This document shows, piece by piece, positions 39,001 through 42,000 of a stretch of 64,000 nucleotides of DNA. This DNA is from a bacterium (GTDB taxonomy: Bacteria > Patescibacteriota > Dojkabacteria > SC72). The stretch spans positions 265,799 to 329,798 of the forward strand of contig JAJTYH010000002.1 of assembly GCA_021463465.1 (NCBI GenBank), written 5' to 3'. The position numbers were made by a program. Position 1 is the stretch's first letter. Each line of letters starts with the position of its first letter.

Positions 39001-42000
39001 CAGAAGTTCCTTTGTTGGAACTATCTGTGCGGAAGGAATCAGGCCTTCATCTACCCACGAAACCTTTTTCAAATCAATCTTACCAGCATATAACTTGGCA
39101 TAAAGTGATTGATCTTTTTCAATAGCCTGGCGTACTCTCCTAAATCCTCTGAAATACGACACATCTTTGCTATAAATTCCAGGTTGATTAGTATCGCCAA
39201 GACCTCTTTTCAATCTGTATGCAACATCAAAAGCGTCCAAGGGTTTAGTAAAACCTCGCAAGACTTCGTAGAGGTTCCTAAAACTAAGTTTCTCGCCTAC
39301 ATATACACCATAAACCATCAATGCACGTTTCATAAGGTTCTGATAATCCAAAACCCCCATCATCTCTTCGTTATACATGGCTAAACCCTCTTCAATATCC
39401 AAGTATGATTTCACATTGGCATTGTATAGCGCTGGTACACCTGATAAAGCTCCATTATGCGATCTCAAGACATGCGTGCCTACCTCATGAACAATACTCT
39501 TTTTGACTAAGAAGGGGGTCTTTTCAATATTCCTATCAAGAAAAATTGTCTTGCCTTTAGTTCCGGTCTTCAGACCATTTTTAGCAATGTTCATAGACTC
39601 TTTTACCCCCCACTCTGTAAGACCCAACTCCGCTAAAACTATTTCTATAGCCTTCTTAATTTGATCAAAATGCAAGTTTTCTTTACTCCCTCTATCCTCT
39701 GCCAATTGGTACTTCTTCACTTTTCGTTTTAAGACAAGACAAGCATTCCTAAAGAGTTTCTCCGTTGGAACCTTGTAATGACGTTTTGACATTACTGTGA
39801 AAGCCTCATTTTGTCCTATGGAATCCATAAGGTCATCCGCATCTTTCTTATCTGAAATTAACTGTATGTAGAATTCAGAGATCCTAGGGTCAACATCAGA
39901 CACTCTCACAAGACTCTTTAGTTCCGAAAATATTTTCTCATTCTGATTTGGTCTTTTAACGTATTTGAATTGCGGACTATAAATGCTGGACGCAAGGAAT
40001 TTAGACTTCTCAGCCTCTAGGTTATCTGGTGTAATAGCCAATGCTGTGGGCAACCTTAGTTCTACTAAAAGCTTACTCACTTCATCTAACAGCATCTCTT
40101 TTTTACTCCTCTTAAACCAGAACATAATAACTGTCTTAAAATAATTCGGACATTTAATTACTTCTCATGGACTTAGCGAAGCTTCTCTGCCCAGACGCAA
40201 TCAACTCTAACGCAATCCCTGTACCTTTTGCAACACAATACATAGGCTCTTCGGCTACATGGGCAGGAACACCTGTAGCCCTTGTTAGTAGCTTATCCAA
40301 GTTTCTTAACATTGAAGTACCTCCACTCATAACCATGCCTCGATCAATGATATCAGCAGCTAGTTCAGGTGGAGTTTTCTCTAAGACCCCTTTAATTGCC
40401 TGGATTATTTTGGATAACGGAAGTTTCAAAGCCTCAGCTACATCATTAGAATTTACTATTAAGGTTTTAGGTAATCCCCCTGCCACATCCCTTCCCTTTA
40501 CACTCATCTCCTTAGGATTTTCTAACTTCATTGCAGAGCCCACCGTTACTTTAATATTCTCAGCAGTCTGTTCTCCTATTAAAATCCCTCGCTTCTTCCT
40601 CATGTATGCGATTATGGCTTCATTTAAAGTATCTCCAGCAATTCGAAGCGAATTGAATTCAACTATCCCATCTAAAGAAATAACTGCAATCTCTGCTGTA
40701 CCACCGCCCAGGTTTACAATCATGTTGCCCGAAGAAGTATTAATAGGTAGACCTGCTCCTAAGGCCGCTAGGACAGGCTCAGGAAGGAGATTTACTTTAC
40801 GTGCACCTGCGCCCATTGCGGCCTTGATTACGGCTCTTTCCTCTACCGAGGTTATTCCAGCAGGTACGCTTATCATTACCTCTGGTTTGATAATCTTGCT
40901 TACTCCTAGAGTCTTGTTAAAAAAATATGTAAGTAAGGCTTGAGTGACCCTGGAGTCCGCAATTACTCCATTACGAAGAGGTCGTTTGGCTACAATATTG
41001 TCCGGAGTCTTTCCAATCATCTCCTTAGCCTCCTGGCCAACAGCAATGACGGTAAATGTATTGGTATCAATTGCTACAACAGTAGGTTCAACCAAAACAA
41101 CCCCCTCGCCTTCAATGAAGACAATCGAGTTGGCCGTACCTAAATCAATTCCTACTTTTTTAGAAAGAGAGAACATTATGCTAGATTATATGATAATTGG
41201 GCCATATAACCAACCTTTACTCCTCAGGAATAAGTTACCAAGTCTTTACTTAAATTAAATATGGACTGATCAAATTCAGCTCCTGGCGGAAGAAAGGCAA
41301 TAACCCCTGAACTCGAATTTTTAAAAGCTTTTTCTGACATCTTTCTTGCATGAAAAAATGCTTCACCCATATCGTACTTTCGACAAAGTTCTGCAAAGTC
41401 TTTTGAGCGATAGTAGTCACTTCTTAAATTATCCTCAACATTCCTCTCATGTTCATCATCAACAGCTCTCTTATACGTGCTATTTTTTATCCCAAATGAA
41501 TTATATTCCATTTCAGTTACCTCTCTTGTTATCTGTCTAAAGTCTTGACTTTGACTAGGTATACCGAAGTACTCTAGAGAACTTATCACTTGTATTCCAT
41601 TTGAAACCTTTTTCAGTTCGCGTTCAAGGTAATCTCTAAGTTCAAAAACTTTGTCGTGATTAGACTTTGTATCCATTCTCTTTGGCCTCAAAAGCTCATG
41701 ATCCATTATAGGACAGATTATATTAATTGGAATTCCTATGAGTTCTAAAGTGAGTGGCAACGTAAGTTCTTCCAAAAGTACAGCTAAATAATCGTCAATT
41801 CTCTTAACCTTAATTGTTTTATCTTTCTGCACGTACTCAAAGTTTTGTTCAGCCCCAATTACCTGCTGATCGCCATCCCTATCGTAATAGTACCTTAAGC
41901 ACATAGGAGAATAGCTGTCTATGGGCTTTCCCGTCAAAACAGCTAGATATATGTAACCTTTTACCAATTTATACTTTTCTGGAGAGATTTTGTGAAAGTA

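What the first reader, a model, noticed from the sequence alone, without database searches (positions are those of the whole stretch)
40154..41176. Extra MreB paralog whose nearest neighbour is a MATCAP-like peptidase
The window has two full-length actin-fold MreB homologs: one with mreCD-pbp2 and a second (340 aa, C-terminus ...ASGQRSFAKSMRSN) directly upstream of the DUF1704 peptidase. Bacterial cytoskeletal proteins modified by MATCAP/TTL-like enzymes have not been described. The distinct C-terminal tail of this paralog compared with the housekeeping MreB is the obvious place to look.
Basis: inference. Interest (0 to 1): 0.6.

Follow-up and report, generated by a model that had tools for sequence, protein, structure and literature searches.

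The report
Second MreB beside MATCAP-like peptidase
A candidate-phylum bacterium (Dojkabacteria) carries a genuine second MreB cytoskeleton gene directly upstream of a MATCAP-like peptidase, and this pairing holds across the whole class, but the peptidase's partners appear to be the neighbouring ATP-grasp ligases and nothing shows that MreB is its substrate.

Summary
ORF 40154-41176(-) is a full-length MreB (340 aa), 47% identical to the MreB at 24919-25974(-) that precedes mreC and PBP2. It lies 28 bp upstream of, and co-oriented with, a DUF1704/MATCAP-family metallopeptidase. That peptidase has an intact HExxxH and EEGLA, and its model matches human MATCAP.

The pairing is not chance. In 79 of 79 informative Dojkabacteria species genomes the MreB paralog sits upstream on the same strand, within 150 bp in 74.

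That conservation is part of a larger syntenic block: UvrA, PEGA, TrpRS, MreB-2, DUF1704, four ATP-grasp ligases and a 7TM protein. TrpRS shares the same transcription unit.

Outside Dojkabacteria, none of 75 DUF1704 loci has an MreB gene. Eleven encode the peptidase fused to an RloC-type ATP-grasp ligase, and at least six more have an ATP-grasp gene within 3 kb.

The MreB-2 tail is no longer than that of MreB-1. It is basic, ends in variable residues, and is unrelated in deep lineages that keep the gene pair.

Best reading: the peptidase serves the Rlo-like ligase cluster, and its link to MreB is a lineage-specific operon arrangement. Direct modification of MreB is not excluded, at about 10%.

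The parts
40154..41176 (-). MreB-2: full-length MreB paralog, 340 aa, pI 9.2, with a flexible basic C-terminal tail (residues ~328-340)
   Evidence: PF06723 E 9.7e-129. TIGR00904 and NF010539 above cutoff. 47% identical to MreB-1. PDB MreB 7zpt E 2e-103. AF2 model pLDDT 88, tail residues 336-340 below 50. pI.
38971..40125 (-). DUF1704/MATCAP-family Zn-metallopeptidase, 384 aa (possibly starting at ATG 40095, which has AGGAG upstream)
   Evidence: PF08014 92.9 bits. H213-E214-xxx-H218 and E245-E246-G-L-A are invariant or nearly so. Human MATCAP 7z5g E 9e-13 by sequence. AF2 model pLDDT 93, Foldseek match to 7z5g with prob 1.0 and TM 0.61/0.69.
38036..38974 (+). RimK-like ATP-grasp ligase, convergent with DUF1704 (4-bp overlap of the gene ends)
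   Evidence: PF08443 E 4.7e-11. TIGR00768 50 bits, below cutoff. Gap to DUF1704 of at most 150 bp in 55 of 72 species.
36381..38039 (+). Cyanophycin-synthetase-like ATP-grasp protein, 552 aa (N and G domain region only)
   Evidence: NF010623 238 bits matching profile positions 184-571 of 871, far below the cutoff of 877.
35398..36369 (+). Cyanophycin-synthetase G-domain-like ATP-grasp ligase, 323 aa
   Evidence: TIGR02068 227 bits matching profile positions 165-470 of 862, below cutoff.
33920..35401 (+). RloC-type ATP-grasp (ATPgrasp_ST / alpha-L-glutamate ligase-like) with a C-terminal RimB/RloA-like region
   Evidence: PF14397 E 5.7e-67. PF05618 weak, 17.6 bits at residues 418-493. TIGR02291 280 bits against a cutoff of 314. 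Homologs carry stronger precomputed PF05618 hits, and the L145 homolog hits PF05618 at 38 bits, E 1.9e-9.
33298..33951 (+). RloB-like 7TM membrane protein lacking the transglutaminase-like domain
   Evidence: NF052267 matches only profile positions 313-505 of 508. Orthologs carry PF14402 7TM_transglut.
42777..44282 (-). TrpRS with an N-terminal tRNA_edit domain, on the same strand as MreB-2; in many relatives it lies directly upstream of MreB-2 in the same gene string
   Evidence: PF00579 and PF04073. TrpRS to MreB-2 gap of at most 150 bp in 34 of 40 species that have both genes in the locus.
41224..42580 (-). Two lineage-specific ORFs with no family assignment (286 aa and 172 aa), inserted between TrpRS/tRNA and MreB-2
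   Evidence: No Pfam or NCBIfam hits. Homologs were found only in L001, L016 and L076.
44589..46115 (+). PEGA-domain membrane protein, divergent from the TrpRS/MreB-2 string; the most persistent upstream neighbour of MreB-2
   Evidence: PF08308. Found upstream of MreB-2 in nearly all loci, including the deep lineages L171 and L173.
24919..25974 (-). MreB-1: the paralog in the elongasome context (MreC 24113-24910, mreD-position ORF 23646-24116, PBP2 21650-23644), pI 4.8
   Evidence: NF010539 470.7 bits. MreC and PBP2 Pfam hits. pI.

Best explanation
The locus holds two separate things that Dojkabacteria happen to transcribe together.

(A) MreB-2 is a bona fide, catalytically intact second MreB. 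It is unusually basic and is separate from the mreC-PBP2 elongasome operon.

(B) The DUF1704/MATCAP-family metallopeptidase is the hydrolase of the convergent Rlo-like cluster. That cluster comprises a short RloB-like 7TM protein, an RloC-type ATP-grasp ligase with a RimB-like C-terminal region, two ligases resembling the cyanophycin-synthetase G domain, and a RimK-like ligase.

By analogy with RimK/RimB and RloC/RloA, the ligases would build amino-acid oligomers or polymers, or tails on an unidentified acceptor, in an ATP-dependent way. The peptidase would trim or degrade them.

Shown: the family memberships, the intact active-site motifs, the conserved gene order, and the fusion or adjacency of DUF1704 with ATP-grasp ligases in unrelated lineages.

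Inferred: the ligase/hydrolase relationship, the chemical nature of the product, and that MreB-2 is not the acceptor. On this reading the MreB-2 to DUF1704 adjacency is an ancestral, class-specific operon arrangement. At most it reflects co-regulation with cell-envelope growth, not an enzyme-substrate link.
For: DUF1704 associates with ATP-grasp ligases independently of MreB. Of 75 non-Dojkabacteria DUF1704 loci, 11 encode ATPgrasp_ST-DUF1704 fusion proteins (~767 aa) downstream of 7TM_transglut proteins. The fusions were confirmed by Pfam on representatives P0263, P0294 and P0376.

L145 has 7TM, ATPgrasp_ST (with a RimB-like C-terminus), DUF1704 and another ATP-grasp gene as one co-directional string, with no MreB. 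L117 and L121 have DUF1704 next to a RimK/TTL-like ATP-grasp, and in L117 also an N-formylglutamate amidohydrolase. In total 17 of 75 loci have an ATP-grasp fused or within 3 kb, and 0 of 75 have any MreB at HMM E <= 1e-3.

In L172, DUF1704 stayed with RimK, cphA1-like, ATPgrasp_ST and 7TM genes while MreB and PEGA are absent within 10 kb.

Within Dojkabacteria a ~12-gene block is syntenic, including the unrelated UvrA, PEGA and TrpRS genes. TrpRS to MreB-2 gaps are as tight as MreB-2 to DUF1704 gaps (median 24 versus 18 bp).

The tail is not conserved in deep lineages that retain the pair, and its terminal residue varies and its charge is basic. The peptidase is basic (pI 9.4), which fits acidic substrates such as the poly-alpha-glutamate made by RimK-type ligases (RimK chemistry as described in PMC12239564).
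Against: MreB-2 to DUF1704 adjacency is kept in 74 of 79 species. That is as good as the adjacency inside the ATP-grasp operon and better than DUF1704 to RimK (55 of 72) or UvrA to PEGA (11 of 63). In L171 the MreB-MATCAP pair stayed together while the ligase genes were displaced by 7 kb.

I found no genome shown to have MreB-2 without the peptidase. P. aeruginosa rlo mutants have cell-shape defects (PMC12239564), so a pathway-level link between Rlo-type systems and MreB-driven elongation is plausible. No biochemical data exist for any bacterial DUF1704 protein: searches for 'DUF1704' and 'QEGLA' returned one unrelated paper each.
Confidence: 0.6

Rival explanations
1. Direct modification cycle on MreB-2. 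One or more of the ATP-grasp ligases add amino acids to MreB-2, at the tail or on side chains, and the MATCAP-like peptidase removes them. This would tune filament behaviour in the way the tubulin tyrosination/glutamylation cycle does.
For: The co-oriented, probably co-transcribed MreB-2 to DUF1704 pair occurs in 79 of 79 species and in deep lineages. The tail is predicted to be flexible and exposed, and its first 9 residues are constrained in the crown clade. The peptidase has the MATCAP fold and an intact active site. The ligases lie immediately adjacent.
Against: The tail is unrelated or nearly absent in lineages that retain the pair. The terminal residue is variable and the tail is basic rather than acidic. 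There is no TTL-family hit among the window's ligases. No MreB occurs near DUF1704 in 75 other loci, where the peptidase is instead fused to or beside ligases. L172 keeps the peptidase and ligases without MreB nearby. TrpRS shares the operon, so adjacency is not specific.
Confidence: 0.1
2. Pathway-level coupling without covalent modification. MreB-2, perhaps together with the PEGA membrane protein, and the Rlo-like ligase/peptidase module are co-regulated because both serve envelope growth, osmotic homeostasis or cell shape. MreB-2 would not be a substrate.
For: The Rlo system of P. aeruginosa controls hypo-osmotic tolerance, ampicillin sensitivity and cell morphology (PMC12239564). PEGA, MreB-2 and DUF1704 persist as a trio in the deep lineages L171 and L173. 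Adjacency is conserved at the same level as within the ligase operon.
Against: No such linkage is seen outside Dojkabacteria. The same block also includes UvrA, TrpRS and ribosomal proteins L10 and L12, so general synteny in these small genomes is an adequate explanation. L172 breaks the link.
Confidence: 0.25
3. The second MreB is a recent duplicate or an assembly or binning artefact, of no significance.
For: None found.
Against: The two copies are only 47% identical. MreB-2 orthologs at 72-89% identity occur in well over 100 protein clusters and in 79 species genomes in the same context. The exact protein is found on four independent contigs.
Confidence: 0.01

Closest known systems
MreB paralog sets such as Bacillus subtilis MreB/Mbl/MreBH
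   Same: Several full-length MreB-family actins in one genome, one encoded with mreCD and the others elsewhere. The nucleotide-binding motifs are intact.
   Different: MreB-2 is basic (pI 9.2 against 4.8 for MreB-1). Across Dojkabacteria it is fixed between a PEGA-domain gene and a MATCAP-family peptidase gene. Nothing is known about how it polymerises or where it localises.
RloABC operon of Pseudomonas aeruginosa (PMC12239564) and RimK/RimB
   Same: An RloC-type ATP-grasp (PF14397, TIGR02291-like) next to a 7TM_transglut-family membrane protein, with a RimB/RloA-like region and a RimK-like ligase. The logic is a ligase paired with a peptidase.
   Different: The 7TM protein lacks the transglutaminase-like domain. 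The retropepsin-like part is a weak C-terminal fusion on the cytoplasmic ligase, not a secreted RloA. There are three additional ATP-grasp ligases and a DUF1704 metallopeptidase. The NCBIfam scores are below the family cutoffs.
Bacterial DUF1704 / TIGR02421 'QEGLA motif' proteins
   Same: Same Pfam family, with an HExxxH and EEGLA active site. They are frequently associated with ATP-grasp ligases and with N-formylglutamate amidohydrolase (L117, L121).
   Different: The window protein scores 108 bits against the equivalog cutoff of 338.65 and is only ~30% identical to that group. The Dojkabacteria clade is distinct, and it alone is preceded by MreB.
Human MATCAP (KIAA0895L) / TMCP tubulin carboxypeptidases with TTL/TTLL ligases
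   Same: Homologous peptidase fold and catalytic motif. The genomic neighbourhood combines a cytoskeletal protein, ATP-grasp ligases and the peptidase.
   Different: There is no evidence that the bacterial enzyme acts on a cytoskeletal protein. The MreB-2 tail is basic and has a variable terminus, whereas tubulin's tail is acidic and ends in tyrosine (established knowledge of the tubulin detyrosination cycle). The ligases are RimK, RloC and CphA types, not the TTL family.
Cyanophycin synthetase CphA
   Same: Two proteins match the CphA N and G (ATP-grasp) region at 227-238 bits.
   Different: The Mur-ligase-like M domain is missing: the matches stop at profile position ~571 of 871, and the scores are far below the cutoffs of 850-877. 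These proteins are therefore not cyanophycin synthetases in the strict sense.

Membership tests
MreB/Mbl family (bacterial actin) | Sequence match to the family models above their curated cutoffs | tested here: met
   PF06723 429.3 bits (cutoff 27), TIGR00904 429 bits (cutoff 365.75), NF010539 436.6 bits (cutoff 293).
MreB/Mbl family (bacterial actin) | Actin-fold nucleotide-binding motifs (DLGTAN, GGGT, the GG adenosine loop) and a predicted actin fold | tested here: met
   D11, G13, T14, G157-G159, T160 and G285-G286 are invariant in a 40-sequence alignment. The AF2 model has pLDDT 88 and MreB-like secondary structure. 349 bits to the solved MreB 7zpt. The model itself was not fold-searched.
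MreB/Mbl family (bacterial actin) | Genomic association with mreC, mreD and PBP2 (elongasome operon) | tested here: not met
   MreB-2 is flanked by hypothetical genes or TrpRS and by DUF1704. Only MreB-1 (24919-25974) precedes MreC and PBP2. This context is typical of the family but is not required of paralogs.
MreB/Mbl family (bacterial actin) | Polymerisation into membrane-bound antiparallel filaments | not testable with these tools
   Needs biochemistry or imaging.
MATCAP / DUF1704 metallopeptidase (PF08014) | Pfam match above the gathering score, with HExxxH and the downstream (Q/E)EGLA motif | tested here: met
   92.9 bits against a cutoff of 27. H213, E214, H218, E246 and G247 are invariant; E245 and A249 are nearly so.
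MATCAP / DUF1704 metallopeptidase (PF08014) | MATCAP-like three-dimensional fold | tested here: met
   The AF2 model (pLDDT 93.2) has human apo MATCAP 7z5g as its top Foldseek hit: E 1.5e-10, prob 1.0, TM 0.61/0.69.
MATCAP / DUF1704 metallopeptidase (PF08014) | Carboxypeptidase activity on the C-terminal tail of a cytoskeletal protein | not testable with these tools
   Indirect indicators are unfavourable. The MreB-2 tail is basic, its terminus is variable, and it is not conserved in deep lineages.
TIGR02421 'flavohemoglobin expression-modulating QEGLA motif protein' (equivalog) | Score above the equivalog cutoff | tested here: not met
   108 bits against a cutoff of 338.65. It is a distant clade of the same superfamily.
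RloABC system | [quoted passage not shown] | tested here: not met
   Only the 7TM part is present. The 217-aa protein matches profile positions 313-505 of 508, at 67 bits against a cutoff of 900.
RloABC system | RloC-type ATP-grasp (TIGR02291 / PF14397) | tested here: inconclusive
   PF14397 226 bits, above its cutoff of 31.4. TIGR02291 280 bits, just below its cutoff of 314.
RloABC system | A secreted RloA retropepsin with a signal peptide | tested here: not met
   There is no separate gene of this kind. There is only a weak PF05618-like region (17.6 bits against a cutoff of 27) at the C-terminus of the cytoplasmic ligase.
Tubulin-code-like writer/eraser pair acting on a cytoskeletal filament | A TTL-family ligase (PF03133) | tested here: not met
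   No PF03133 hit at E <= 0.01 for any of the four ATP-grasp proteins in the window.
Tubulin-code-like writer/eraser pair acting on a cytoskeletal filament | A conserved, acidic, disordered C-terminal tail on the filament protein, with a defined terminal residue | tested here: not met
   The tail is disordered but basic, with a mean net charge of +1.5. The last residue varies: R 41, N 34, T 20, S 12 and others. The tail sequence is unrelated in L171, L173, L170 and L006.
Tubulin-code-like writer/eraser pair acting on a cytoskeletal filament | Co-occurrence of filament gene and peptidase beyond one lineage's inherited synteny | tested here: not met
   79 of 79 inside Dojkabacteria, but 0 of 75 DUF1704 loci outside it have MreB.
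Cyanophycin synthetase (CphA) | Full three-domain architecture (N, G ATP-grasp, M Mur-ligase-like) above the model cutoff | tested here: not met
   227-238 bits against cutoffs of 850-877. The matches cover only profile positions ~118-571.

The most novel reading that the evidence does not exclude
In Dojkabacteria, MreB-2 is the acceptor of amino-acid additions made by the adjacent ATP-grasp ligases, and the MATCAP-like peptidase reverses them. This would be a bacterial counterpart of the tubulin code operating on an actin homolog. It would also suggest that MATCAP-type enzymes were tied to cytoskeletal regulation before eukaryotes arose.
Probability: 0.08. Interest if true: 0.85.

Novelty: new variant of a known kind. 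Interest (0 to 1): 0.35.

Why it matters
If MreB-2 were modified by these enzymes, it would be the first reversible ligase/peptidase modification cycle on a bacterial cytoskeletal protein. It would also give a prokaryotic context for MATCAP.

On the evidence here, the more probable value is narrower. It gives a clear genomic assignment of bacterial DUF1704/MATCAP-family peptidases to ATP-grasp ligase systems of the Rlo/RimK type, including ligase-peptidase fusion proteins. That offers a testable role for a family with no characterised bacterial member.

It also flags a class-wide, unusually basic second MreB in an uncultured lineage with small genomes. The function of that paralog is unknown.

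Tried and rejected
(1) Tail conservation as a marker of substrate status. The crown-clade motif looked promising and seemed to disappear where a gene is inserted between MreB-2 and DUF1704 (L075, L085, P0063, P0081). I rejected the correlation for two reasons. L080, L082 and L083 keep the motif despite insertions, and L171, L173 and L170 lack it despite direct adjacency.

(2) Promoter and terminator scan of 38500-44700. Hit counts were no higher than in shuffled sequence, and nothing informative lay between MreB-2 and DUF1704.

(3) Rfam scan for a T-box upstream of TrpRS. It found only two tRNAs.

(4) Literature searches for DUF1704, QEGLA, bacterial MATCAP homologs, MreB glutamylation and Dojkabacteria MreB. 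No relevant prior description turned up.

(5) I could not test whether MreB-2-type proteins exist outside Dojkabacteria, or whether the L172 lineage has MreB-2 elsewhere in its genome.

(6) The artefact or recent-duplicate explanation is rejected.
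Full report
**What is in the window**

ORF 40154-41176(-) encodes a 340-aa protein ending ...ASGQRSFAKSMRSN. It is a full-length MreB: PF06723 at E 9.7e-129, TIGR00904 and NF010539 above their cutoffs, and 349 bits to the solved Geobacillus MreB 7zpt. The AF2 model has the actin-type fold expected, with pLDDT 88.

A second MreB lies at 24919-25974(-). It is 351 aa and 47% identical to the first. It precedes MreC, an ORF in the mreD position that has no Pfam hit, and a PBP2-type transpeptidase.

Downstream of MreB-2, 28 bp away on the same strand, is ORF 38971-40125(-). It belongs to the DUF1704/MATCAP family: PF08014 at 92.9 bits. H213-E214-xxx-H218 and the EEGLA motif are conserved. 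Its sequence matches human MATCAP 7z5g at E 9e-13. A confident model (pLDDT 93) has human MATCAP as its top structural match, with TM 0.61/0.69.

Five + strand genes (33298-38974) converge on the peptidase gene:
- a short RloB-like 7TM protein;
- an RloC-type ATP-grasp ligase (PF14397) with a weak RimB-like C-terminal region;
- two ligases resembling the cyanophycin-synthetase G domain;
- a RimK-like ligase.

Best hits place the organism in Candidatus Dojkabacteria (WS6, Patescibacteria).

**Is the pairing more than chance?**

Yes, within the lineage. I scanned one genome per GTDB species with a DUF1704 profile, which returned 80 loci, all Dojkabacteria-like (47-56% identity). I annotated them with phmmer against the window's proteins.

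MreB-2 lies upstream on the same strand in 79 of 79 informative loci. The gap is at most 150 bp in 74 of them (median 18 bp). The other five have 1.2-1.7 kb insertions.

Approached from the MreB-2 side, every ortholog whose context I looked up has the peptidase downstream. Deep lineages whose peptidases are only 36-37% identical to the window's still show PEGA, MreB and MATCAP together (L171, L173).

**Why this does not establish a functional link**

The pair sits inside a ~12-gene block that is itself conserved:

UvrA(-) PEGA(-) [TrpRS(+)] MreB-2(+) DUF1704(+) RimK(-) cphA-like(-) cphA-like(-) ATPgrasp_ST(-) 7TM(-), followed by ribosomal proteins L12 and L10.

Where TrpRS is present, it is as tightly spaced to MreB-2 (median gap 24 bp, 34 of 40 within 150 bp) as MreB-2 is to DUF1704. 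Operons in these small genomes therefore mix unrelated functions.

On the other side of the argument, the MreB-2|DUF1704 adjacency (74 of 79) is retained as well as adjacencies inside the ligase operon (56 of 66 up to 61 of 61). It is retained better than DUF1704|RimK (55 of 72) or UvrA|PEGA (11 of 63). I count this as real evidence against a pure hitch-hiking explanation.

**Evidence from outside the lineage**

A metagenome scan with a profile of the ~30%-identical outgroup DUF1704 proteins gave 80 loci, 75 of them non-Dojkabacterial.

No locus contains any MreB-family gene at HMM E <= 1e-3. Of these loci, 43 have at least 1.2 kb upstream of the peptidase gene and 26 have at least 5 kb.

Eleven loci instead encode a single ~767-aa protein that fuses an RloC-type ATP-grasp to DUF1704, downstream of a 7TM_transglut protein. 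The same architecture was confirmed in database representatives P0263, P0294 and P0376.

L145 carries 7TM, ATPgrasp_ST (with a RimB-like C-terminus), DUF1704 and another ATP-grasp as one co-directional string. This is the window's module without MreB. L117 and L121 have DUF1704 next to a RimK/TTL-like ATP-grasp, and L117 also has an N-formylglutamate amidohydrolase.

In all, at least 17 of 75 loci have an ATP-grasp fused or within 3 kb. The remainder lie among unrelated housekeeping genes.

Within the Dojkabacteria-labelled L172 lineage, DUF1704 stayed with the ligase and 7TM genes, while MreB and PEGA are absent within 10 kb. Gene fusion and recurrent adjacency across unrelated lineages identify the ATP-grasp ligases as the peptidase's functional partners.

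**The tail**

Both paralogs have about 14 residues after the last helix, so MreB-2 carries no extra tail.

In the crown clade the first part of the tail is constrained (G[EDQ]RxF[STV][FK][NES]), but the last 3-5 residues differ between clades: RSN, KNN, FRR, SIT, GYN, ISS. The last residue across 120 homologs is R 41, N 34, T 20 and S 12, with a scatter of others. The mean net charge of the tail is +1.5. The model predicts that the tail is disordered.

Lineages that keep direct adjacency to DUF1704 have unrelated tails. L171 has NKLDILQKSLGN, L173 has GEGYNLGHLRSSRTV, L170 has EEGSLAYLGSGSN, and L006 has almost no tail.

The peptidase is always present, while the tail varies.

Systems of the RimK, TTL and MATCAP types act on acidic C-termini (for RimK, PMC12239564; for tubulin, established knowledge). 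The MreB-2 tail is basic, and so is the peptidase (pI 9.4). This is a soft argument for an acidic substrate rather than the MreB-2 tail.

**Most likely mechanism**

I take the DUF1704 protein to be the hydrolytic partner of an Rlo/RimK-like ligase module. The ligases would build amino-acid oligomers or polymers, or tails on an unidentified acceptor. The metallopeptidase would trim or recycle them, as RimB does for RimK, and as RloA's genetic interaction with RloB and RloC suggests (PMC12239564).

MreB-2 is a separate, genuine second MreB, and notably basic (pI 9.2 against 4.8 for MreB-1). Its co-transcription with the peptidase is an ancestral arrangement in Dojkabacteria.

Because P. aeruginosa rlo mutants show morphology and osmotic-tolerance defects, co-regulation of this module with an MreB paralog is biologically plausible. 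I give pathway-level coupling about 0.25, direct modification about 0.1, and the enzyme-belongs-to-the-ligases reading, with adjacency as inherited context, about 0.6.

**Comparison with known systems**

- MreB-2 is a member of the MreB family by all sequence tests. It lacks only the elongasome gene context.
- The peptidase is a member of PF08014 by sequence, motif and fold. It is not a TIGR02421 equivalog (108 bits against 338.65).
- The ligase cluster resembles RloABC and RimK/RimB but fails the membership tests: there is no transglutaminase domain in the 7TM protein, no secreted RloA, and scores are below the cutoffs.
- The CphA-like proteins lack the M domain.
- No window ligase hits the TTL family.

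**Novelty and verdict**

I found no paper describing a bacterial DUF1704 function, an MreB-MATCAP linkage or modification of MreB by ATP-grasp enzymes. The class-wide MreB-2/DUF1704 operon and the expanded Rlo-like module containing DUF1704 are new variants of known kinds.

The finding is real and moderately interesting, but its headline interpretation is not supported. Interest 0.35. The tubulin-code-like reading keeps a probability of about 0.08 and would merit about 0.85 if it proved true.

Noticed in passing
window 42777-44282 (-): TrpRS carries an N-terminal YbaK-like aminoacyl-tRNA editing domain (PF04073, E 6e-13). Some Dojkabacteria orthologs have it (L001, L010, L176; ~490-504 aa), while others are plain 335-345 aa TrpRS (L002-L005). 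An editing domain fused to TrpRS is unusual.
   Followed up: partly
window 44358-44312 (-): A 20-pair stem-loop followed by a T run lies just upstream of the TrpRS start (44282). It could be an attenuator. The Rfam gathering scan of 38000-47000 found no T-box there, only two tRNAs (42607-42678 and 46121-46193, both on the - strand).
   Followed up: partly
window 40154-41176 (-) and 24919-25974 (-): The two MreB paralogs have opposite charge. MreB-2 has pI 9.2 and MreB-1 has pI 4.8.
   Followed up: no
window 41224-42580 (-): Two ORFs without any family assignment (286 and 172 aa), next to a tRNA gene, occupy a variable slot between TrpRS and MreB-2. Homologs were seen only in L001, L016 and L076. 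Other species have different inserts here, or none.
   Followed up: partly
L152:7204-11047; also L128, L132, L133, L139, L143, L144, L147, L154, L155, L164: Outside Dojkabacteria there are ~767-aa fusion proteins joining an RloC-type ATP-grasp to a DUF1704/MATCAP peptidase. They lie downstream of a 7TM_transglut protein, which in L152 carries PKD domains in place of a transglutaminase domain.
   Followed up: partly
window 33920-35401 (+), residues ~418-493: The RloC-like ligase has a C-terminal region weakly similar to RimB/RloA retropepsin-like proteases (PF05618, 17.6 bits). The hit is stronger in homologs (precomputed Pfam hits in L001 and L174; 38 bits in L145). I did not check whether the catalytic aspartate motif is intact.
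   Followed up: no
window 20499-21605 (-) and 23646-24116 (-): The ORF downstream of PBP2, which I had expected to be RodA, and the ORF in the mreD position have no Pfam hit at E <= 1e-3.
   Followed up: no
window 40095-40125 (-): The DUF1704 gene may start at the second ATG (40095), which has an AGGAG 10 nt upstream, rather than at 40125. Database homologs occur in both a 374-376 aa and a 384-388 aa form.
   Followed up: no
L172 (contig Ga0116187_1000426): A Dojkabacteria-labelled lineage has DUF1704 with the ATP-grasp/7TM genes and L10/L12, but no MreB, PEGA, TrpRS or UvrA within 10 kb. Whether this genome has MreB-2 elsewhere is unknown.
   Followed up: no
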